IMG/VR virus record: IMGVR_UViG_3300045988_093246
Location: 1-44,640 of that record
Strand: one strand, 5' to 3'
Length of the DNA stretch: 44,640 nucleotides
Source of the DNA: a virus
In this document: positions 1-44,640 of the stretch, piece by piece
Layout of the letters: every line of letters begins with the position of its first letter
How positions within the stretch are numbered: the first letter of the stretch is position 1
Notes under the pieces: model-generated
The model's input: only the letters and a program-made list of their open reading frames with translations
Told to the model about the DNA's origin: nothing
Database searches by the model: none
Program-made: the position numbers and the translations under genes

Positions 1-99
1 ATTTTTTTTTTGGGCTTTCATTTTTTTAATTTACCAATTTAAATTATGCTGATTATAAGGGCATTTTTTTAATTGCATGATTAAATTTTCTAATTGTGA
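1..99. repeat. Terminal direct repeat / circular overlap copy 1 (identical to 44542-44640)
   Basis: Positions 1-99 are identical to 44542-44640 by direct comparison. This indicates either terminal redundancy or a circular assembly overlap, and defines a ~44,541 bp genome unit. Confidence 0.9.
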
Positions 100-775
100 A
101 AATTTTAAAAAAACACTTGACAAGATTGTATACAATAAAAACGTGACAAAAAGTGAAAAACATTAAAAATAGTATGCGCAACCCATTTTATATATATGCG
201 CAATATACTTTATAGCCCATTTTCTACCATTTTATGATTTTGGGAGTAAATTTGGGAGTAAACATTGATATACCAAAACAGCATTCTTTTCATCAACTAT
301 TGCGGTGTTTTAAATAAACATAGTCGAAATACACTTGCGCACTATCATTTATATGTATGCGCATATCATTTTAACATTAATATTTAATTATGCGCTATTT
401 ATTTTATGCTTCTCCCTTGTGTTCCCTTTTTCTTCTCCTTCTGCTGGTGTTCTTCTTCTCCTGTTTGTGTTCCCTTCTCTCTTAGGTGTATAAGCACATA
501 TATAGCCTATAAAGCCAATATAAGCCCTATAAGAGATTATAAGCATATAAGAGGTAGAACAACACCAATATATATAAAAGTCTCTCATAATGGCTATATG
601 GGCCAAATAGAAGCATATCATCATAGAAGGATATAACAGCCCTCTTTATGGTACAACCAATCAATAGCCTTCATAACCTTAACCAATTGATAGCATAGCA
701 AGGATATAGCCCTAAATGGCTGAACAAGGTGTTCTAAGAGACTTCTATAATAGTTAGGCATAATAACACCTGCAT

Positions 776-806
776 AAAAAAAAACCTACAGAGGTTGTTC
801 TGTAGG
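776..806 (-). terminator. Rho-independent terminator ending the leftward transcription unit
   Basis: A 7-bp perfect stem (cctacag 785-791, ctgtagg 800-806) with an 8-nt loop is preceded on the plus strand by an A9 run (776-784), which is a U9 tail on the minus-strand transcript. It sits just downstream of the last small minus-strand gene. Confidence 0.6.
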
Positions 807-841
807 CTGTAGAAGTATTCAATTGTCTAATTATAATAAGA

Positions 842-988
842 TTATAATAGTTCTTTTAGTTTGGTTTCTAGCTTGTCTATATACTCTTGTACTACGATAT
901 TTTGAAATAGTTCATTCTGCTCGTATAAGTCAAGTAGTGTCTTCATTAATATTACCTTTTCATTCTGTCTCTTTTCTTCGCTGTTCAT
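842..988 (-). CDS. Small hypothetical protein (~48 aa, below ORF-track threshold)
   Basis: Hand-translated ATG ORF MNSEEKRQNEKVILMKTLLDLYEQNELFQNIVVQEYIDKLETKLKELL. An AAAGGAG SD lies ~10 nt upstream, and the ORF is followed by the intrinsic terminator at 776-806. Confidence 0.35.
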   Translation of the reverse strand: MNSEEKRQNEKVILMKTLLDLYEQNELFQNIVVQEYIDKLETKLKELL

Positions 989-1623: not shown

Positions 1624-2055
1624 TTATTCTCCTTTCAGTTTGTCTAGTTTCTTTTGTCTTCGCTTCTCTGCTTCTGCAGGTTGTCTAACAGGTATGTTCT
1701 TGCTCTTTATCTCTGCCCATAGTTTAATGCATAGCTTAACGAACAGCTCATAGATAGACATAGCGTAAACCCTGCCTAACCATACGTGATTATATGTGGT
1801 CTTTACGCTTACGCTATACAGGCACTTGATAGAATCATCATAAGCTAGATTAATCCACTGCGGGGTTATCTCGTATTTATTGACTAGCATATAAACTAGC
1901 TTCTCTAATTTCTTCAAAGGTATCTGTACGTCCATCGGGTACTTCTTAAAAGGCTTTATCTTCCTTAATGTCTTGTCTATTGCCTGCCTTCCTTGCTGGT
2001 CTGAATAGTCTAAGTTTAATATGTGTTCAATCTTTGCTACCTTTCCAATCTCCAT
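1624..2055 (-). CDS. Hypothetical protein
   Basis: ORF track 143 aa; tightly packed with its neighbours. Confidence 0.5.
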   Translation of the reverse strand: MEIGKVAKIEHILNLDYSDQQGRQAIDKTLRKIKPFKKYPMDVQIPLKKLEKLVYMLVNKYEITPQWINLAYDDSIKCLYSVSVKTTYNHVWLGRVYAMSIYELFVKLCIKLWAEIKSKNIPVRQPAEAEKRRQKKLDKLKGE

Positions 2056-8080: not shown

Positions 8081-8330
8081 AAATACTAACAGTTAACAGA
8101 TAATATAATTACTTAACAGTAAACAATACTAACATTAAATACTAAATACTAACATTAAATACTATAGGTATATAACATTTAAGTTAGTAGGTTAAATACT
8201 CTAAGTAAATAATAATACTCTAAGTAAATAATAAAGAATTACTAATAAAGAATTACAAAGAAAATATATATATATAAATATATATATACAAAAGAAAGTA
8301 AATAAGAAAGTAAGCGCACTTTTATACATT
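8081..8330. repeat. Iteron-rich AT-rich intergenic region with (TA)n tract; candidate origin
   Basis: Direct repeats atactaacattaaatact x2, atactctaagtaaataataa x2, taaagaattac x2, aaagtaaataagaaagtaag, plus atatatatatataaatatatatatac. It shares ggttaaatact with the 44.3 kb array. Confidence 0.6.
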
Positions 8331-8362
8331 GCCTGTTTGCGCGCTTTTCTTCTATTACTGCG

Positions 8363-8581
8363 CTACCATCTGCGCTGTCCGTTGTGTCCGCTTTTCTTGC
8401 TTCTGCGCATATCTGCACTAGCAATTCTATTTACATCATAATCAGTAACATCATGGTGTTTCTTGTTGTATTCCTTCTCTTTATGCACTTCTTCAAGTTC
8501 TGCTTTATACGTTGCGCAACTGTCATGACAGCCTAGAAAACGCTTTTTGCAGTCCTTACAGCATTTAATACCCATTGCCAT
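8363..8581 (-). CDS. Small Cys-rich (zinc-binding) protein, candidate regulator
   Basis: 72 aa, N-terminus CCKDCKKRFLGCHDSC. Preceded by a near-consensus promoter and a GGGGG SD, with three TGCGCA boxes upstream. Confidence 0.5.
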   Translation of the reverse strand: MAMGIKCCKDCKKRFLGCHDSCATYKAELEEVHKEKEYNKKHHDVTDYDVNRIASADMRRSKKSGHNGQRRW

Positions 8582-8607
8582 ATTTACACCCCCATTTCTT
8601 TAATTAA

Positions 8608-8735
8608 ATTATATCATAAATTAAATAAAATGCAATACAATAATTAAATTAAAATACATATAAAATAGCACTGCGCAACATATGCGCACATACTAAAACA
8701 GCATAAAATAAAAATTCGCATTGTCTGCGCACTGT
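8608..8735 (-). promoter_or_regulatory. Promoter (TTGCAT-16-TGaTATAAT) with three upstream TGCGCA boxes
   Basis: Minus-strand -10 at plus 8608-8613 and -35 at plus 8630-8635. TGCGCA at 8672-8677, 8683-8688 and 8726-8731. Confidence 0.55.
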
Positions 8736-8753
8736 TATAATTTTAATTTAATT

Positions 8754-38916: not shown

Positions 38917-38918
38917 GT

Positions 38919-39064
38919 TTATTCCCCCATTAATTGTTCAAATAAAATTGAATCATATTCACATTTTAGATATGCTTCTTCAAGTGATTCTTCTTTGTTT
39001 ATAGGTTCAAAGTCCTCTTTTGATAGCCCTAATTTTCCATCATTTTTCTTCGTAAGTCTGTCAT
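38919..39064 (-). pseudogene. Frameshift-interrupted small gene (MTDLRRK / NDGKLGLSKEDFEPINKEESLEEAYLKCEYDSILFEQLMGE)
   Basis: A strong SD (GAGGTtacaccATG) and ATG at 39064 open an 11-codon ORF ending in TAG. Shifting frame at the A5 run gives a further 41 codons ending at the next gene's RBS. Confidence 0.4.
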
Positions 39065-39906
39065 GGTGTAACCTCACTCAGTTTAACAGTATATTCCACA
39101 TCGCTATGCACTGCCACATGGCAGCTATCGCCGTTTGAGTTTCTGAAAGTAAGAGAGCCTCCAGCTTCTACATTAAAAGGTTCTTGAAATGTATCTTCGA
39201 TAATGTCTGAGATGTCTGTAACGATTGGTTCTGCAAGTTCATAACAAATAATTATAGAGCCGCCACTATCGTATAGGTTTTCACAAAATTCTTCAATTGC
39301 GTTCGCAGCTTCGCTTGGGCTTTTTCGTTGTCGTTTTCAAATCGGTATGAAATGCCTTTATTTAAATCCCATAAAGCAGCTAAACTTCTGTTTGCTCTTG
39401 CGTCTGCTTTTGTGTTGCTGTCAAGGTCTTCTCTTAACTTGCTTATAGTGCCTTCCCTTTTTGCTTCTGCTTGAGTTCTAGCGGTTTCTGCGCTAACTCT
39501 TTCGCTTTCTGCTGTATCTCTATTTGCTTCTGCTTCAATTCTTGCGCTTTCGTTAGCTTTCTAATTCATCTGCTTTTCTTATCTCTTCATTCTGTTCATG
39601 CGCTTTGTCATTCAAATCAGCGGGTGATGTCTTGCAAATTAAATTTAATTCCCAAATACCGCTAATCTTAGTTATCTTACTTGATACAATAAATTCATCA
39701 TCTGCTAAGGTGATATACCTGTTACCCTTTGATTGTTATTGCTATATGAGTATGTAATATACTTATAATAGTCTTTGTATTCTTGCGGAAAAAGAAAATG
39801 TAACGTTTCATCTAGATTCTCATGCTGATTACCTAAAAAAAATATCTTCTTTCGATGTCTTACCGCTTTTGTCGATTAGAATATTAATCATTATATTATT
39901 CCCCAT
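39065..39906 (-). pseudogene. Decayed ~280-codon gene broken by at least 3-4 frameshifts (N-terminal MINILIDKSGKTSKEDIFF..., central coiled coil ...KANESARIEAEANRDTAESERVSAETARTQAEAKRE..., C-terminal ...GGSIIICYELAEPIVTDISDIIEDTFQEPFNVEAGGSLTFRNSNGDSCHVAVHSDVEYTVKLSEVTP)
   Basis: No intact ORF of 60 aa or more exists here on the minus strand. Hand translation shows continuous protein-like sequence jumping between frames at 39845 (A8 run), ~39725, ~39565 and ~39330 (A5 run). The segment is flanked by intact TerL and the lysis genes. Confidence 0.5.
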
Positions 39907-39929
39907 TTCTTGAAATAATTTTATTTAAT

Positions 39930-41297
39930 TTACCACTTATTACCGCTTCTAGAATTAAAATCTTTTTGTTTTAAGTCTGCAACCGTAACGGTATCCAGCG
40001 CATACCATATAGCACTAAATGAATGCGGGTCTATATTGAACTTATCATATACCGTATCGCCGTTCGGTTTTCTTAAATAAGTAAGGTCTCTTAGCTCTCT
40101 TATTGTATTCTTACACTTTGGACTACATATTATCTTTCTAAATCTCTTTATCTTACGCGTATTGCTTAGCCTACTTCCTGCAAACTTATTACGGCACGCG
40201 CGCATCTGATAACCTTTTTGTCTGTAATAGCTGATAGCCTTCGGGTCTTCATTATCTGCTACAATCTGCTTATATACGCCTTGAGTAGCGTAACCTTCTA
40301 AGCGGTGTTTTAACTCTACCATAGGCTCATAGCTTGCGAACTTATCATCTGTAACATGGTTCATGTATATTTCATCCCATATGTATAAATAACCGCGCTT
40401 TATATCTACGCTCATACTGATTACCGCATTAAATGATTCCTCAAAACCAAAGTCAAAACCAAAATACATATTTTTAGCACCTAGCGCATTTACTGCATCC
40501 TTAAATGTCTTCGCATTGCTTGCTACTCTAAATTGCGGTAAAACTCTAACACCATTTGCGCCAAACCTTCCCCAACGCGCTACACGATATAAAGGTTTAT
40601 CATAGTTTTTAATATCCTCTAATCGCTTTTTGTAGCTCTCTGGTAAATAAGGGTTATCATCCATTAAACTATGATGATAATATACGCCGTTATGTATTAG
40701 TGTTCTTTTCTTATATAGTTCTTCATCATCAAGTATAGTATGTTCATTTCCCTTTTCGTCAACAGATTTAAAGAAATGTCTATACACCCAATTCTCTTTT
40801 CCAACAGGGTTACATGACAATATAAAATGCATACTTATGTTAGGTGTTCTAATACGTCCTAACAACTCTTTATAACCCTCGTATTTAATTTCGCTACACT
40901 CTTCTAACCATACAATAGATACGCCGTTTAATGATTTCACTTTTTCGGGTTTATCCATTCCCTTGAAAATAATGCGCGAACCATTAGGGAATCTAAATTC
41001 CATCGGCGCCTTTAACGCTCTTACTCTTGTCTTAGTGTCGCGCTTTTCTTCCTCTACTAAAAGGTTCATACTGCTTAATATTTCTTTAAACAAGTCATAA
41101 CATGATTCGCTTAATGTATCATATACTTCACGTACTACCAATACTTTTCGCTTTTCCTGTAGGCATTTTAATATAATCTTAAGCGCTATATGATAACTTT
41201 TTCCGCTACCATAACCGCCTACTAATAAATAAGTTTCATAATACCAATCAAAAACAAAATCACTAAATCTTTCTGTTACTTCCTTAACTATATTCAT
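39930..41297 (-). CDS. Terminase large subunit (PBSX/Terminase_3 type)
   Basis: 455 aa. Walker A LVGGYGSGKSY, then a nuclease domain; follows TerS. Confidence 0.8.
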   Translation of the reverse strand: MNIVKEVTERFSDFVFDWYYETYLLVGGYGSGKSYHIALKIILKCLQEKRKVLVVREVYDTLSESCYDLFKEILSSMNLLVEEEKRDTKTRVRALKAPMEFRFPNGSRIIFKGMDKPEKVKSLNGVSIVWLEECSEIKYEGYKELLGRIRTPNISMHFILSCNPVGKENWVYRHFFKSVDEKGNEHTILDDEELYKKRTLIHNGVYYHHSLMDDNPYLPESYKKRLEDIKNYDKPLYRVARWGRFGANGVRVLPQFRVASNAKTFKDAVNALGAKNMYFGFDFGFEESFNAVISMSVDIKRGYLYIWDEIYMNHVTDDKFASYEPMVELKHRLEGYATQGVYKQIVADNEDPKAISYYRQKGYQMRACRNKFAGSRLSNTRKIKRFRKIICSPKCKNTIRELRDLTYLRKPNGDTVYDKFNIDPHSFSAIWYALDTVTVADLKQKDFNSRSGNKW

Positions 41298-41300
41298 AGA

Positions 41301-41909
41301 TTATTCATCGTCCCACTCTAACGCATCCCATTCTTCTTCCGTGCTGTCTTGCGCGCTTGCGCTTTGTTTGGCATTACTTTTGTCTGCGCTATTTGTTTTA
41401 TTTTCTTGCGCGTTTACTTCCCATTCTTCGCTATCATCATTTTGCGCATCCTTACGAATAATATTAACTGTAATATTACTGTTTTCTTTACTCTCTGTCT
41501 TGAATTGGTCTCTGTTGCGCTTCCAATTATCTGGTTTTCGATTATTTAACCAACACATGATAGCGGTCGGGTTTGGGGGCATTTCTTTAACTAATTCTTC
41601 AACCCTTACTTTTCTATTTCCGTTTTTATCTGGCGGGCTTATAATTGTTTTAACTTCTTTTACTTTGTAACCGCCTAGCGCTGTTTTTAATAGCGCATTT
41701 TCTACTTGATAATCAACGGTTTCTTTTCCTTCTTCTATTGCTTCATTTATTGCGGGGTATTTCTTGCGCCACTCACAAAAAACTTTATACGATATACCTA
41801 TTTTACGCGCAATATCTGCAAGAGTAAAATCACGCGCATAGCATTTTAATAATTCTATTTTATCGGGTCTTAACCAATAATCAACCTTGCTTTCTCTCTG
41901 TCTACCCAT
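41301..41909 (-). CDS. Terminase small subunit (HTH)
   Basis: 202 aa. N-terminal HTH FTLADIARKIGISYKVFCEWRKKYP and an acidic C-terminus; immediately upstream of TerL. Confidence 0.65.
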   Translation of the reverse strand: MGRQRESKVDYWLRPDKIELLKCYARDFTLADIARKIGISYKVFCEWRKKYPAINEAIEEGKETVDYQVENALLKTALGGYKVKEVKTIISPPDKNGNRKVRVEELVKEMPPNPTAIMCWLNNRKPDNWKRNRDQFKTESKENSNITVNIIRKDAQNDDSEEWEVNAQENKTNSADKSNAKQSASAQDSTEEEWDALEWDDE

Positions 41910-42737
41910 TATTATTTATTCACTTCCCTTTTATTTAATTTTCTTTATTATGCGCTACTTGCGCACTGCTGTTTTTAAAATACCTTTAAATAACACAAAT
42001 AGACAGTCTTCTGACTGCCTTTATTAAACTTAATATTTAAATTGTTTTATTTATTTTTTACTTTATTTTTATATATTCACCACAAATAATTATTTATATA
42101 TTCATTTTGTTGTTTTAATTTGTAAAAGCTATTCCCTGTTCTTATTCACCTTTGCGCACGTTGTCTCACTCGACATTGTGTATATTTCACTTATAATAAA
42201 TCAACAAAATTAGTTTAAAAAGTATATTGGGAAATTTAAGATAAACATTAACGAAATTATTACTATAAGTTGCTTGCTTGTATTCTATGGATTAAAAAGT
42301 AACTGAATGTGAATAAATTGTACTAAGTTATAAGGGGACTTAATTCTTATAACTATTTTATAAAAATGATTAAATTAGTTGGATAATCAACCATTAAAAC
42401 AAAGGTATGATAAATCAAAAAGTATTGTTTTATGAAATTAGAAACACACTTTGTATTGTTTTAAAAAATATTTCAAGGATTATTCTACATCTACATTCTA
42501 CAATGTGAAATATAAACACTTTCAGAAATGCATATTTACAACTTTAAATGAATATTTAATTTTAATTAACTAAGATATGTATAGCGCTTTTACATAACTC
42601 AATTATTTACTTACTAACTTAATTTTCTTATTACTCTTTGTCTTAAACACTTCTTAACTTAGTACTTTGTTACCCGCCCTTTTCTTTTGCTGTATTCTGT
42701 CTTTTTCATTGACATCGGTAACTAACTTTCTAAATAT

Positions 42738-42766
42738 ATTGTACTACAATCTTATAGACTTGTAAA
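42738..42766 (-). promoter_or_regulatory. Promoter TTTACA-17-TACAAT with A-tract UP element
   Basis: Minus-strand -35 = plus tgtaaa 42761-42766; -10 = plus attgta 42738-42743. An upstream (minus) A-rich tract and a GTGAAGCGATAACAC box (plus 42805-42822) follow. It is ~830 nt upstream of TerS. Confidence 0.5.
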
Positions 42767-42887
42767 GTACTTTTTAATATTTTTTTTAATTTAATAGTGT
42801 TTTACTACGGTGTTATCGCTTCACTCTATTTTTTTAACCTGCCCATGTATGCGCTCTTTTTAAACGATAATTGTGCTATACAAACTT

Positions 42888-43069
42888 TCATTTCAATTTA
42901 TCATTTTTAATGATTGCACACTCTCTTTCTCCACTAAATCTACTTTTGTTGTTTGATACCCATGTATAACCATTAGGCGCTGTAAGTGCTCCTTTTATTT
43001 TAACCCAACCTTTAGGAAGTTCACCTTTTATCACATGATAATTTTTACAATTATTTTTTTTCGTTTTGA
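42888..43069 (-). pseudogene. Open frame without start codon (…KGELPKGWVKIKGALTAPNGYTWVSNNKSRFSGERECAIIKNDKLK), possibly frameshifted
   Basis: ~60-codon stop-to-stop frame, protein-like, with no ATG. An A9 homopolymer lies at its 5' end. Confidence 0.3.
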
Positions 43070-43208
43070 TTACCTCTTTTCTAAGAAATTTGTTTATCTC
43101 TTTTCTTTATGTCTATAAACTACCATGACCATGTTTTTAATGTTTTGTAAACACTTTTTTTAATTTTTTTTAAGATTGGTGTTGTTGTGTTATCGCCTCA
43201 CATGAGTT

Positions 43209-43487
43209 TTATAATTTGATGTAATAAATACTACCATCGTGTGTTTTAACGATTGTCATATATAAATCATAATCTTTTTTATAAACTACCTTGATTTCTA
43301 CACAAGCACTATAATTGATTCTTAGTGGTTCTCCTTTATAGCTGTCGCTGTCTGATGTTACATCATAACTATCATTTACATAAAAGATATCGCTATTGTT
43401 ATCTAGCATATTCTTAGCGTTAAATTCTGTGTACATAGTCATATCTAATTCAAAACTTTCAATGTCTGTTATCTTTACTGTTTTCAT
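43209..43487 (-). CDS. Hypothetical protein
   Basis: 92 aa. AGAGAGGTAAA SD; downstream of promoter 43551-43579. Confidence 0.5.
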   Translation of the reverse strand: MKTVKITDIESFELDMTMYTEFNAKNMLDNNSDIFYVNDSYDVTSDSDSYKGEPLRINYSACVEIKVVYKKDYDLYMTIVKTHDGSIYYIKL

Positions 43488-43550
43488 ATTCGTTTACCTC
43501 TCTAATCTTAGAATTTTTATTTTTTTATTTCCTCTTTAACTTACAAACTA

Positions 43551-43579
43551 ATATTAACATATAATTTAATATTTGTAAA
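43551..43579 (-). promoter_or_regulatory. Promoter TTTACA-17-TAATAT with UP element and upstream GTGAAGCGACAACAC box
   Basis: Minus-strand -35 = plus tgtaaa 43574-43579; -10 = plus atatta 43551-43556. Box at plus 43623-43640. Confidence 0.5.
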
Positions 43580-43708
43580 GAGTTTTTTTTAATTTTATTT
43601 AAAATAAAGATTTGTGTTTATAGTGTTGTCGCTTCACTTTCTAACTATTTGTTATAAGCATCAAACAGTTTTCTATTTTTGTTGTCTACATAGTAAACAG
43701 CACCTTCG

Positions 43709-43942
43709 CTACCACCCAACCAACCAACATAAATCGTCTTGGTTTTTTAAAACATCTTCTAAAGGTTTTAGGTATGTTCTCGTACCGTTAGATGTATAAT
43801 CTGCACCTACCATAACTAAATCCATACCGTTGACAGTAAATACACCACCATTAAAACCTAACTGTTTTAATTCCCAATTAAATGCAATTTTTTCAACTTT
43901 CTTAAATGTAACTTTTCTCGTTTTTCTGTTCTCCTTTAACAC
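43709..43942 (-). CDS. Hypothetical protein (GTG start)
   Basis: 77 aa. Apparent GTG start; 31 nt downstream of the -10 of promoter 43973-44000. Confidence 0.4.
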   Translation of the reverse strand: MLKENRKTRKVTFKKVEKIAFNWELKQLGFNGGVFTVNGMDLVMVGADYTSNGTRTYLKPLEDVLKNQDDLCWLVGW

Positions 43943-43972: not shown

Positions 43973-44000
43973 ATTATACTGATTTTTAACCGTTTGTAAA
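43973..44000 (-). promoter_or_regulatory. Promoter TTTACA-16-TATAAT
   Basis: Minus-strand -35 = plus tgtaaa 43995-44000; -10 = plus attata 43973-43978. Confidence 0.55.
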
Positions 44001-44039: not shown

Positions 44040-44440
44040 GCATATTGTTTATATACTGCAATAATTATTATATTTGTTAAATACCGTAAATAATATAACT
44101 TATATTGCTGTTAAATACTACTAATGTATATAGCTTTATGTTAAACACTATTAATGTATATAGCTTTATAGGTTAAACATAAGATGTTATCTTAGTAAGA
44201 TGTTATCTTAACAAGATTTTATCTTAGTAAGATGTTATCTTATTTACGTTAAATACTATTAACGTATATAGCTTTACGTTAAATACTATTAATGTATATA
44301 ACTTTATAGGTTAAATACTATTAACGTATATAACTATTAATGTATATAACTTTATGTTAAATACTTTATAGGTTAAATACTTTATAGGTTAAACATAAGA
44401 TTTTATCTTAGTAAGATGTTATCTTAGTAAGATGTTATCT
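44040..44440. repeat. Iteron/palindrome array: ~9 copies of the gttaaatactattaaYgtatataRctttat unit interleaved with two clusters (4+3) of palindrome TAAGATnnnATCTTA
   Basis: Read directly. The palindrome ataagatgttatcttag occurs at 44179-44245 (4 copies, some as ataagattttatctta) and 44395-44445 (3 copies). Direct ~29-bp repeats lie at 44110-44175 and 44268-44390. Confidence 0.85.
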
Positions 44441-44441
44441 T

Positions 44442-44458
44442 ATTTATGTGAAGCGAAC
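44442..44458. other. GC-rich hairpin GAAGCG-aac-CGCTTC adjacent to the iteron array
   Basis: A perfect 6-bp stem in tgaagcgaaccgcttcg, followed by a relatively GC-rich 60-bp block. Confidence 0.6.
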
Positions 44459-44498
44459 CGCTTCGTTGCCCCACCTCGCTTACACTCCTTACTCCCCA

Positions 44499-44528
44499 AT
44501 AGTACCACTGCGCATTCCATTTTGTCAA
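44499..44528 (-). promoter_or_regulatory. Right-end promoter TTGACA-18-TACTAT with long upstream A-tract (UP element) and TGCGCA in spacer
   Basis: Minus-strand -35 = plus tgtcaa 44523-44528; -10 = plus atagta 44499-44504; spacer contains TGCGCA (44509-44514). Plus-strand T8 and T10 runs at 44533-44552 act as an A-tract upstream of the -35 on the minus strand. Fires leftward from next to the terminal repeat. Confidence 0.5.
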
Positions 44529-44541
44529 CTACTTTTTTTTG

Positions 44542-44640
44542 ATTTTTTTTTTGGGCTTTCATTTTTTTAATTTACCAATTTAAATTATGCTGATTATAAG
44601 GGCATTTTTTTAATTGCATGATTAAATTTTCTAATTGTGA
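44542..44640. repeat. Terminal direct repeat / circular overlap copy 2 (identical to 1-99)
   Basis: Exact identity to window positions 1-99. Confidence 0.9.

What the first reader, a model, noticed from the sequence alone, without database searches (positions are those of the whole stretch)
44040..44458. Dense iteron array with 7-8 TAAGATnnnATCTTA palindromes next to the genome terminus: candidate origin, partition or packaging site
There are two blocks of the perfect 6-bp-arm palindrome TAAGAT-N3-ATCTTA (4 + 3 copies on an 18-19 bp period). They are embedded in ~9 degenerate direct repeats of a 29-bp unit, and the array ends in a GC-rich hairpin GAAGCG-aac-CGCTTC. This architecture resembles iteron-type origins, parS-like centromeres and pac/terminase recognition arrays. 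It lies ~100 bp from the terminal repeat. No matching initiator, ParB or other HTH gene is obvious, so the binding protein is unknown.
Basis: seen in the sequence. Interest (0 to 1): 0.65.

Follow-up and report, generated by a model that had tools for sequence, protein, structure and literature searches.

The report
Amplified palindromic protein-binding array in phage
A gut Clostridia-type phage carries, in its one large non-coding control region, a fast-evolving tandem amplification of a 15-bp palindrome whose 16-bp repeat unit is almost identical to repeats flanking plasmid partition operons, yet no partition genes or binding protein were detected in the phage.

Summary
The array is real but was partly mis-measured. 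There are 6 perfect and 1 one-mismatch TAAGAT-N3-ATCTTA palindromes, in blocks of 4 and 3, on a 16-bp period rather than 18-19 bp. They are interleaved with a ~30-bp bipartite direct repeat, and a conserved GC hairpin sits beside them. The "genome terminus" is an assembly artefact: the ends overlap by exactly 99 nt, and a near-identical k99 contig crosses the junction.

The array lies in the only large non-coding region of a ~44.5-kb siphophage genome that assembles as a circle. It sits between two strong promoter-like sites. Relatives carry one or two palindromes at the same spot. Near-identical genomes carry 7, 9 or at least 9, so this is a rapidly expanding tandem repeat built on a conserved site.

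Only two plasmid records matched the array, and both matches abut small ParA / ~100-aa partner-protein partition operons. No ParA, ParB, ribbon-helix-helix protein or replication initiator was detected in the phage.

Best reading: a high-avidity loading platform for a dimeric DNA-binding protein, most likely acting as an operator or roadblock in early transcription. Packaging site, origin and orphan centromere remain live rivals.

The parts
44180..44242 (.). Palindrome block A: 4 units of TAAGAT-N3-ATCTTA on a 16-bp period (the third unit is CAAGATTTTATCTTA).
   Evidence: The sibling genomes k99_98782 and scaffold_320 have 5 copies here.
44396..44442 (.). Palindrome block B: 3 units on a 16-bp period. 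It starts 22 nt after the start of the conserved hairpin, read on the minus strand.
   Evidence: k99_98782 has 4 copies. The scaffold_320 contig breaks inside this block, with 4 copies at one end and 2 at the other.
44243..44395 (-). Middle repeat field: ~30-bp bipartite units (TATATAC-N6-AGTATTTAAC, minus strand) and 16-bp truncated units (TATAAAGTATTTAAC).
   Evidence: TRF period 30 x 3.1 copies, and periods 16 and 62. Motif scan.
44076..44179 (-). Promoter-proximal repeat field: 2-3 further ~30-bp units. Contigs of two close relatives (L001, L002) end here.
44450..44464 (.). GC-rich hairpin GAAGCG-aac-CGCTTC, with an identical sequence in six relatives' lineages.
44467..44497 (-). G-rich leader GGGGAGTAAGGAGTGTAAGCGAGGTGGGGCA (minus strand), directly after the P1 -10 element. 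Its position is conserved, with three sequence types among relatives.
44499..44528 (-). P1: promoter-like TTGACA-18-(TG)TACTAT, reading into the leader, the hairpin and the array. The hexamers are conserved while the spacer varies in relatives.
43973..44000 (-). P2: promoter-like TTTACA-16-TATAAT (11 of 12 matches), ~75 bp downstream of the array. It heads a variable cassette of small ORFs (43942-42888) that ends at a terminator-like site at 42020-42001.
8135..8211 (-). The second and only other locus with the bipartite TATATAC-N-AGTATTTAA motif (2 copies, plus extra TTAAATACT copies). It lies in the intergenic region inside the replication/recombination module.
783..808 (-). Intrinsic-terminator-like site that closes the last minus-strand operon. 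It marks the start of the ~1.3-kb non-coding region that runs (minus strand, across the junction) to P2 and contains the array.
44542..44640 (.). 99-nt exact duplicate of 1-99. This is an assembly k-mer overlap, not a physical terminal repeat.

Best explanation
The array is a tandemly amplified cluster of one conserved 15-bp palindromic protein-binding site. Each 16-bp unit, TAAGATGTTATCTTAG, reads as two inverted 8-bp subsites. It sits in the phage's single large non-coding control region, downstream of promoter P1 with its conserved G-rich leader and GC hairpin, and upstream of promoter P2, which drives a variable cassette of small early-type ORFs.

Inferred mechanism: dimers of a small sequence-specific DNA-binding protein coat the units cooperatively. 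By analogy with plasmid systems the protein would be of the ribbon-helix-helix type. It is either encoded by an unrecognised phage ORF or supplied by the host. The resulting nucleoprotein block would stop or modulate P1 read-through and shape the P1-P2 region, acting as an operator or roadblock.

One site is the ancestral state. In this clade, replication slippage plus a ~216-bp segmental duplication raised the count to 7 or more, which would raise avidity.

Shown here: the sites, their period, their position, their conservation and their copy-number dynamics.
Inferred: that a protein binds, its fold class, and the transcriptional consequence.
For: 1. The palindrome is unique to this locus and far beyond chance. 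This fits a single cis-acting site rather than a dispersed regulon.
2. Ten relative loci from independent assemblies, in about six sequence-distinct forms, keep the same palindrome at the same place, 21-36 nt after the start of an invariant hairpin and downstream of a conserved promoter-like P1. They have only 1 copy (L127, L128, L136, L138, L139) or 2 copies (L081, L090, L137). A single dimer site is therefore the conserved functional core.
3. Near-identical genomes differ almost only in copy number: 3+4, 4+5, and at least 4 (contig broken) + 5.
4. P1 and P2 are strong sigma-70-type matches whose hexamers are conserved while the sequence between them drifts.
5. Only two PLSDB records matched the array, and both matches abut ParA / ~100-aa partner-protein operons. 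One Cronobacter unit, TAAGATGTTATCTTGG, is 15 of 16 identical to the phage unit. A homologous operon on an E. coli IncI-gamma/K1 plasmid is flanked by 8-bp GTTATCTT repeats. In the type Ib system of plasmid TP228, such arrays serve both as operator and as centromere for the ribbon-helix-helix protein ParG, with one dimer per 8-bp step and stronger binding with more boxes (PMC3130281).
6. In 13-14 Actinomycetota genomes, 2-3 copies of TAAGAT-N3-ATCTTA on the same 16-bp period lie about 10-20 bp from a start codon. This is an operator-like position.
Against: - No binding protein was identified. No ribbon-helix-helix or helix-turn-helix Pfam or PHROG match was found in about 55 ORFs, apart from the N-terminus of TerS.
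- The two conserved flanking small ORFs that I modelled are a single helix and a dsRBD-like fold, not DNA-binding folds.
- The nearest palindrome is ~180 bp from the P2 -35 element and ~50 bp downstream of the predicted P1 start. That is unusual for a simple operator.
- P1 and P2 are consensus matches only; there are no transcript data.
- Sharing a motif with plasmid and actinobacterial arrays does not prove a homologous binder.
- The ribbon-helix-helix assignment of the plasmid partner protein itself rests on weak hits (RHH_1 E = 0.097; MazE9 E = 0.82).
Confidence: 0.35

Rival explanations
1. Packaging (pac) recognition region. The small terminase subunit TerS, the only recognisable helix-turn-helix protein in the phage, would load on the two palindrome blocks, and the large subunit would cut between or beside them, for example at the conserved GC-rich hairpin or G-rich element. 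This is the arrangement I recall for SPP1 pacL-pacC-pacR and for the 4+3 hexamer layout of P1 pac.
For: - TerL belongs to Pfam Terminase_3, the portal is SPP1-type, and sibling contigs break at scattered positions. I take this to fit headful packaging.
- The array has two blocks ~216 bp apart that flank a repeat field.
- It lies upstream of terS on the same strand.
- The TerS recognition helix is identical in all palindrome-bearing lineages and differs at 4 positions in the L131 lineage, which lacks both palindrome and hairpin.
Against: - The site lies ~2.1-2.5 kb from terS, separated by an independent promoter, a variable ORF cassette and a terminator-like site.
- Most relatives have a single palindrome, so the two-block layout is not conserved.
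- A perfect dyad fits a two-fold dimer better than a ring-shaped TerS.
- The TerS difference in L131 is also explained by overall divergence (72% identity).
Confidence: 0.2
2. Replication origin region. Transcription from P1 through the G-rich leader would form an R-loop or primer, in the style of the transcription-primed origins of T4, T7 and ColE1 as I recall them. The very AT-rich repeat field would act as the unwinding element. The palindromes and the bipartite units would be initiator or accessory-factor sites.
For: - A strong promoter-like site is followed at once by a G-run-rich leader in an otherwise low-GC window (0.27-0.30). This arrangement is conserved in position across three sequence types.
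- The phage encodes its own DNA polymerase, primase, UvsX/RecA-like recombinase and SSB.
- The bipartite unit recurs only in the intergenic region of the replication module, in the same orientation. This recalls the paired origins I remember for SPP1.
- GC skew is monotonic, with the coding strand G-rich.
Against: - No initiator gene was recognised.
- There are no DnaA boxes in or near the array.
- The skew is equally explained by one-directional transcription.
- The palindromes are dyads, not direct iterons.
- The 8.1-8.7-kb region, with an (AT)n run inside the replication module, is at least as good an origin candidate.
Confidence: 0.2
3. Orphan centromere-like or decoy array. The phage would carry the cis site of a type Ib partition system or another ribbon-helix-helix system, without the genes. 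It would use a protein made by the host or by a resident element, either to position phage DNA or to titrate that protein.
For: - The unit is near-identical to repeats flanking ParA / small-partner-protein operons, with the same period. These were 2 of 2 PLSDB hits.
- The copy number is rapidly expanding.
- No ParA or partner protein was detected in the phage.
Against: - The plasmid matches are in Enterobacterales, whereas the phage's closest cultured relatives infect Clostridia.
- A scan of 185,579 species genomes found only one Clostridia genome with a tandem pair of this motif, and it is not next to par genes.
- No integrase or plasmid-maintenance gene was found.
- One copy suffices in most relatives.
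Confidence: 0.1
4. RNA-level element. The P1 transcript would fold the tandem palindromes into an extended imperfect duplex that grows with copy number, to be bound or processed by an RNA-binding factor.
For: - The P1-proximal 115 nt fold at -28.2 kcal/mol, z = -3.4, with the three palindromes nested into one long stem.
- A conserved 143-aa ORF two genes upstream of the region has a dsRBD-like alpha-beta-beta-beta-alpha core.
Against: - Any tandem palindrome array folds this way.
- The stems are AU-rich and weak.
- There is no Rfam match.
- There is no terminator and no covariation, because the sites are invariant.
- The dsRBD similarity is weak (Foldseek E about 0.02-0.03).
Confidence: 0.07
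5. A neutral tandem repeat. A slippage-prone expansion of a short hairpin-forming sequence, with no function beyond that of the single ancestral site.
For: Copy number differs among 99%-identical genomes, and assemblies break inside the array.
Against: - Units stay perfect or near-perfect palindromes despite the turnover.
- The central triplet is kept (AAC on the minus strand).
- Two blocks are maintained in three independent assemblies.
Confidence: 0.08

Closest known systems
Type Ib plasmid partition centromere/operator arrays bound by ribbon-helix-helix proteins (TP228 parH/OF with ParG). By context, also the uncharacterised ParA / ~100-aa partner-protein operons of Cronobacter NZ_CP141995.1, Pantoea pPAG04 and E. 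coli IncI-gamma/K1 p15648-2.
   Same: - Short subsites repeat every 8 bp in direct or inverted orientation and are packed without gaps into two clusters.
- More boxes give stronger binding in TP228 (PMC3130281).
- The Cronobacter unit is 15 of 16 identical to the phage unit, on the same 16-bp period.
- The 8-mer GTTATCTT is the repeat on the E. coli plasmid.
   Different: - No ParA ATPase and no partner-protein homologue were detected in the phage, and the array does not abut a par operon.
- The host phylum differs.
- Most relatives of the phage have a single site.
- Binding by any ribbon-helix-helix protein is untested.
SPP1 pac (pacL-pacC-pacR) and P1 pac (4 + 3 hexamers flanking the cut). 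Recalled from the literature, not re-read here.
   Same: - Two clusters of terminase-binding repeats ~150-200 bp apart, upstream of or in the terminase region.
- A headful-type packaging module (Terminase_3 TerL, SPP1-type portal).
   Different: - The array here is 2.1-2.5 kb from terS, behind its own promoter and ORF cassette.
- The sites are perfect dyads.
- The two-block layout is absent from most relatives.
- No cleavage data exist.
Iteron or transcription-primed origins (lambda ori dyad-symmetric iterons plus an AT-rich region; T4 oriF and T7 primary origin, promoter plus unwinding element). Recalled from the literature.
   Same: - Tandem dyad sites lie next to a very AT-rich repeat field, downstream of a strong promoter-like site.
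- The phage has its own replisome genes.
   Different: - No initiator gene and no DnaA boxes were found.
- Copy number ranges from 1 to more than 9 between relatives.
- The array is not inside or beside the replication module.
Paired palindromic operators of controller (C) proteins and similar Xre-type dimers (for example C.Esp1396I OL/OR). Recalled from the literature.
   Same: Adjacent palindromes with a 3-bp centre and ~15-16-bp centre-to-centre spacing, bound cooperatively. The layout matches the 2-3-copy actinobacterial arrays seen here.
   Different: Those operators have two sites, overlap the promoter and sit next to the regulator gene. No Xre-type gene was found in the phage.

Membership tests
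Type Ib partition locus (ParA + ribbon-helix-helix partner protein + centromere) | Centromere made of closely packed short repeats (7-8-bp step, direct or inverted) | tested here: met
   The 16-bp units read as two inverted 8-bp subsites. The unit is 15 of 16 identical to a repeat next to parA on Cronobacter NZ_CP141995.1. The 8-mer GTTATCTT is the repeat on a homologous E. coli plasmid locus.
Type Ib partition locus (ParA + ribbon-helix-helix partner protein + centromere) | Walker-type ParA ATPase encoded at the locus | tested here: not met
   Strict Walker-A patterns occur only in TerL and the RecA-like protein. tblastn with the plasmid ParA gave no hit in the window.
Type Ib partition locus (ParA + ribbon-helix-helix partner protein + centromere) | Small ribbon-helix-helix centromere-binding protein encoded next to the array | tested here: not met
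   phmmer and tblastn with both plasmid partner proteins gave nothing. No RHH Pfam hit appeared in 51 ORFs. The adjacent 48-aa ORF is predicted as one long helix. A very divergent ribbon-helix-helix protein cannot be excluded.
Type Ia ParB-parS | parS-type 16-bp palindrome (TGTTNCACGTGAAACA-like) and a ParB helix-turn-helix protein | tested here: not met
   The sequence read directly is different. No ParB family hit appeared in any ORF.
Iteron-type origin | Direct repeats (17-22 bp) bound by a Rep initiator encoded nearby | tested here: not met
   The palindromes are dyads. The ~30-bp units are direct repeats, but no Rep-, O- or DnaA-like gene was found.
Iteron-type origin | AT-rich unwinding region and DnaA boxes | tested here: inconclusive
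   The surrounding 1-kb windows have GC 0.27-0.30. No DnaA box with 1 mismatch or fewer lies within 1.7 kb.
pac site of a headful phage | Site of the first terminase cut, giving a permuted and terminally redundant genome | not testable with these tools
   Only assemblies are available. Scattered contig breakpoints and k-mer overlaps are compatible with permutation.
pac site of a headful phage | Located in or immediately next to terS and bound by TerS | tested here: not met
   The location criterion is not met: the array is 2.1-2.5 kb upstream of terS (41301-41909), with P2, three small ORFs and a terminator-like site between them. TerS binding was not tested.
cos site or physical direct terminal repeat | Fixed genome ends at this position | tested here: not met
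   The 99-nt overlap equals an assembler k-mer size. k99_98782 is contiguous across the junction. Other contigs break at different places, or inside the repeats themselves.
CRISPR array or repeat-mimicking RNA anti-CRISPR | Repeat matching a host CRISPR repeat | tested here: not met
   A 21-nt core of the 30-bp unit has no exact match in 185,579 species genomes. There are no spacers. An exact-match scan would miss diverged repeats.

The most novel reading that the evidence does not exclude
The phage carries an orphan centromere-like or operator-like array, the cis half of a ribbon-helix-helix system without its genes. The array recruits or titrates a protein supplied in trans by the host, a resident plasmid or another phage. 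It could position or retain phage DNA in a carrier state, or it could disarm a partition, toxin-antitoxin or defence regulator. Its copy number would be tuned by rapid slippage in an arms race.
Probability: 0.1. Interest if true: 0.8.

Novelty: new variant of a known kind. Interest (0 to 1): 0.45.

Why it matters
If a protein does coat this array, it would be a compact natural example of binding avidity being tuned by repeat slippage, from 1 to more than 9 sites among close relatives, in the control region of an abundant human-gut phage lineage.

The near-identity of its unit to repeats flanking enterobacterial ParA operons gives a direct experiment: does that partner-protein family, or a Clostridial counterpart, bind the phage DNA? 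It also raises the possibility that phages borrow cis sites of plasmid maintenance systems.

Practically, the array breaks short-read assemblies of this phage group. The 99-nt terminal repeat should not be read as a physical end.

Tried and rejected
- **Physical terminus or direct terminal repeat: rejected.** The overlap is exactly 99 nt, and the k99 sibling contig is contiguous across the junction.
- **Known RNA families and tRNAs: none found**.
- **CRISPR-repeat mimic for the 30-bp unit:** no exact match in species genomes.
- **Close DNA relatives in INPHARED:** none. Only 80-90-nt AT-rich chance-like hits, and none in the array.
- **Conservation across 80 TerL relatives:** none of the 80 loci contains an array of this palindrome (two have a single isolated core match), and their upstream regions mostly lack comparable arrays. 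The L006 repeat lies inside an ORF. L075 has different arrays on a 16-17-bp period upstream of terS.
- **Flanking ORFs as the binder:**
  - The 48-aa ORF is a single helix.
  - The 143-aa ORF is dsRBD-like, and its family also occurs in the lineage without the palindrome.
  - The 77-aa first early ORF is replaced by unrelated ORFs in other palindrome-bearing lineages.
- **ParA or partner-protein homologues in the phage or beside the bacterial hits:** none.
- **DnaA boxes:** none nearby.
- **Literature search for the motif:** nothing relevant.
- **A short ORF in the P1 leader:** not conserved; it is frameshifted in L081 (sequence read).

Full report
**The observation**

The region holds six exact copies of TAAGATNNNATCTTA, at 44180, 44196, 44228, 44396, 44412 and 44428. 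A seventh copy with one mismatch sits at 44212. Chance expectation is 0.02, and no other copy with one mismatch or fewer exists in the window.

The period is 16 bp, not 18-19 bp. The blocks are 44180-44242 (4 units) and 44396-44442 (3 units).

Between and before the blocks lies a second repeat family. Read on the minus strand it is a ~30-bp bipartite unit, TATAAAG-YTATATAC-RTTAAT-AGTATTTAAC. There are five full copies and several 16-bp truncated copies. The whole array is a ~216-bp super-unit present twice. The hairpin GAAGCG-aac-CGCTTC is at 44450-44464.

**The "terminus"**

The two ends of the window are identical over exactly 99 nt. A 99.3%-identical contig from another assembly is literally named k99_98782. 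It is 44,673 nt long and carries the array and the junction in its interior. Other sibling contigs break at different places, or inside the array itself.

The genome therefore assembles as a circle, and the break next to the array is arbitrary. Proximity to a terminal repeat carries no information.

**Genome context**

All recognisable genes are on the minus strand. The minus-strand order is:
- P2, then small ORFs;
- TerS (41301-41909) and TerL (39930-41297; Pfam Terminase_3);
- holin and amidase endolysin;
- an SPP1-type portal, a head-morphogenesis protein, then head and tail genes;
- primase, SSB-like protein, family-A DNA polymerase, methyltransferase, UvsX/RecA-like recombinase, Cas4-like exonuclease and RuvC-like resolvase;
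- a MoxR-like AAA protein and small ORFs;
- a terminator-like site at 808-783.

The closest cultured phages are Clostridium phages CS266P1-4 from human faeces (TerL ~59% identity), which share the one-strand layout.

The array lies in the only large non-coding stretch. This runs on the minus strand from 782 across the junction to 44000, about 1.3 kb.

**Local anatomy (minus strand)**

1. A promoter-like P1 at 44528-44499: TTGACA-18-TACTAT, with an upstream TG.
2. A G-rich leader at 44497-44467.
3. The GC hairpin.
4. Palindrome block B.
5. The repeat field.
6. Palindrome block A.
7. More repeat units.
8. P2 at 44000-43973: TTTACA-16-TATAAT.
9. Three small ORFs, then a terminator-like site at 42020-42001 just before terS.

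**Comparative evidence**

I recovered the same region from IMG/VR, ENA and Logan contigs.

The P1 hexamers, the hairpin (identical sequence) and P2 are conserved across the palindrome-bearing lineages. The G-rich leader keeps its position but occurs in three sequence types.

The palindrome is always present 21-36 nt after the start of the hairpin, but the copy number varies:

| Genome or locus | Palindrome copies |
|---|---|
| L127, L128, L136, L138, L139 | 1 |
| L081, L090, L137 | 2 (one unit in L081 and L137 has a 2-bp centre) |
| window | 3 + 4 |
| k99_98782 | 4 + 5 |
| scaffold_320 | contig broken inside block B (4 copies at one end, 2 at the other) + 5 |

A more distant lineage (L131) keeps a promoter followed by a G-rich leader and a P2-like promoter (consensus -35 and -10 hexamers read in the sequence; the P2 pattern scan missed it). 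It has other repeats, no hairpin and no palindrome.

Contigs of close relatives often end inside the array. This is expected for a polymorphic tandem repeat.

The conserved element is therefore one palindromic site. The array is a recent, still-changing amplification.

**Is the motif known elsewhere?**

- A blastn search of the array against 72,556 plasmids gave only two hits. Both lie directly beside operons encoding a 208-aa ParA-family ATPase and a ~100-aa partner protein.
  - In Pantoea pPAG04 the arrays lie both upstream of parA and downstream of the partner gene.
  - In a Cronobacter plasmid the array lies upstream of parA.
  - One Cronobacter unit is TAAGATGTTATCTTGG. The phage unit is TAAGATGTTATCTTAG.
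- The partner protein has a disordered N-terminal tail. Its C-terminal segment gives only weak hits to RHH_1 (E = 0.097) and to the antitoxin MazE9 (E = 0.82). The ribbon-helix-helix assignment is therefore my inference.
- tblastn with the partner protein matches 1,501 plasmid records. On an E. coli IncI-gamma/K1 plasmid the homologous operon is flanked by six, and by five plus three inverted, copies of the 8-mer GTTATCTT. That 8-mer is the right half of the phage unit.
- The phage palindrome can therefore be read as two inverted 8-bp subsites.
- This is the architecture described for ParG on TP228 parH/OF. There, 4-bp boxes and 4-bp spacers occur in direct or inverted orientation and in two clusters. 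One dimer binds per box, binding strengthens with box number, and the arrays act both as operator and as centromere (PMC3130281).
- A scan of 185,579 species genomes for two consecutive palindromes found 28 places.
  - 13 are in Promicromonospora and Nocardia, and one is in an unclassified Actinomycetota MAG. Each has 2-3 copies of TAAGAT-N3-ATCTTA on the same 16-bp period, about 10-20 bp from a start codon. In the one locus I translated (L104), the gene encodes a ~477-aa P-loop protein.
  - Four copies lie upstream of an acetyltransferase-like gene in a Treponema MAG.
  - About 3.5 copies lie upstream of an aspartokinase-like gene in a Clostridia MAG.
- These hits show that this unit and this period are used as operator-like arrays in bacteria. 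They do not show homology of the binder.

**Search for a binder in the phage**

- No ParA: strict Walker-A patterns occur only in TerL and the RecA-like protein.
- No homologue of the plasmid ParA or partner protein.
- No ribbon-helix-helix, helix-turn-helix, ParB, Rep or integrase family among about 55 ORFs, apart from the helix-turn-helix at the N-terminus of TerS.
- The conserved 48-aa ORF just before the non-coding region is predicted as one long helix (pLDDT 96).
- The conserved 143-aa ORF has a dsRBD-like core (pLDDT 88; weak Foldseek hits to ADAR1, PKR and Staufen dsRBDs). Its family also occurs in the lineage without the palindrome.
- The first early ORF differs among palindrome-bearing lineages.
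- The TerS recognition helix is identical in palindrome-bearing lineages and differs in L131. This is compatible with TerS being the binder, but overall divergence explains it equally well.

**Interpretation**

That this is a protein-binding array is very likely, about 0.85. It is a unique locus with a perfect dyad at a conserved position, it is maintained through repeated turnover, and its unit matches repeats next to ParA operons.

Which process it serves is not settled. I commit to an operator or roadblock platform between two early promoters (0.35), because:
- the conserved core is a single dimer-type site at a fixed distance from P1;
- the flanking promoters are the other conserved features;
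- the same unit lies at operator-like positions in bacteria and on plasmids.

Rivals:
- pac recognition by TerS (0.20);
- a transcription-primed origin region (0.20);
- an orphan centromere or decoy (0.10);
- an RNA-level duplex element (0.07);
- a neutral tandem repeat (0.08).

The evidence for and against each is listed in the Rival explanations section.

**Novelty and score**

Tandem dyad arrays for small DNA-binding proteins are a known kind. Three things are unusual here:
- the orphan status, with no cognate genes detected;
- the 1 to more than 9 copy dynamics among close relatives;
- the near-identity of the unit to repeats flanking enterobacterial ParA operons, in a phage whose closest cultured relatives infect Clostridia.

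I rate it a new variant of a known kind, with interest 0.45.

Noticed in passing
window 1-99 and 44542-44640: The exact 99-nt end overlap equals an assembler k-mer size. A sibling contig is named k99_98782. Any direct-terminal-repeat or completeness call based on this overlap reflects circular assembly, not virion ends.
   Followed up: yes
window 170-365, 8670-8745, 41951-41965, 44509-44515: The motif (A)TGCGCA(A/T) is enriched (21 matches against 5.9 expected) and clusters in intergenic regions. It occurs in the P1 spacer, just upstream of terS, and in the 8.6-kb intergenic region. It may be the site of a second regulator or a promoter element.
   Followed up: partly
window 8081-8362 and 8582-8753: A second repeat-rich intergenic region lies inside the replication/recombination module. 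It has 20-, 19- and 14-bp direct repeats, an (AT)12-like run and the same bipartite TATATAC-N-AGTATTTAA motif as the array. It flanks a 72-aa Cys-rich ORF (8363-8581). It is a plausible origin or middle-promoter region.
   Followed up: partly
window 1624-2055 (-): A conserved 143-aa ORF of unknown function is predicted with high confidence to contain a dsRBD-like alpha-beta-beta-beta-alpha core. Foldseek hits to the ADAR1, PKR and Staufen dsRBDs are weak (E about 0.02-0.03).
   Followed up: partly
window 842-988 (-): A 48-aa ORF just before the terminator is 77-98% identical across 44 protein clusters and is predicted as a single long helix (pLDDT 96). Its N-terminal ~10 residues are variable and the rest is nearly invariant.
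   Followed up: partly
window 44467-44497 (-) and 400-480: A G-run-rich leader follows P1 directly. Its position is conserved in three sequence types (GGGGAGTAAGGAG..., GGGGGTAGAGGG..., GGGGGTAGGGGGAAAGGGAG...). There is also an ~80-nt polypurine tract on the minus strand at 400-480. Both are unexplained, and both are R-loop- or G-quadruplex-prone.
   Followed up: partly
window 42030-43942 (-): The cassette between P2 and terS carries different small ORFs in otherwise close relatives: 77/92/48 aa here, 90/74 aa, and 116/90 aa. This hypervariability is typical of early host-takeover or anti-defence genes. None has a family match.
   Followed up: partly
window 38917-39929: About 1 kb between terL and the holin contains only 25-64-aa ORFs. 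In the cultured relative CS266P1, the terminase region is interrupted by HNH (I-HmuI-like) endonuclease genes, so this may be a decayed homing-endonuclease or intron remnant.
   Followed up: no
window 33905-35725 (-): The 606-aa head-morphogenesis (SPP1 gp7-like) protein has a C-terminal part that matches ADP-ribosyltransferase and Alt-like families (phrog_3895, phrog_802). This suggests an injected ADP-ribosylating effector.
   Followed up: no
L096-L098, L102-L105, L110-L112, L114, L116, L117, L119 (Promicromonospora, Nocardia and one Actinomycetota MAG): A conserved operator-like element, AAACT-(TAAGATnnnATCTTA)x2-3-GTTT, lies about 10-20 bp from a start codon. The N-termini read MEFxGR.... 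In L104 the gene encodes a ~477-aa P-loop protein. The regulator is unknown.
   Followed up: partly
L140 (E. coli p15648-2) 700-760 and 1800-1870; L125; L126: The widespread enterobacterial ParA / ~100-aa partner-protein partition operon (tblastn with the partner protein matches 1,501 PLSDB records) is flanked on both sides by GTTATCTT-type 8-bp or 16-bp repeat arrays. The partner protein is annotated only as hypothetical.
   Followed up: partly
L075 758-945: A distant relative (TerL 64% identity) has three different arrays on a 16-17-bp period directly upstream of the terS promoter. One has the dyad TAATC-T-GATTA. Arrays on a 16-bp period may be a recurrent feature of this phage group, with lineage-specific sequences.
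   Followed up: partly
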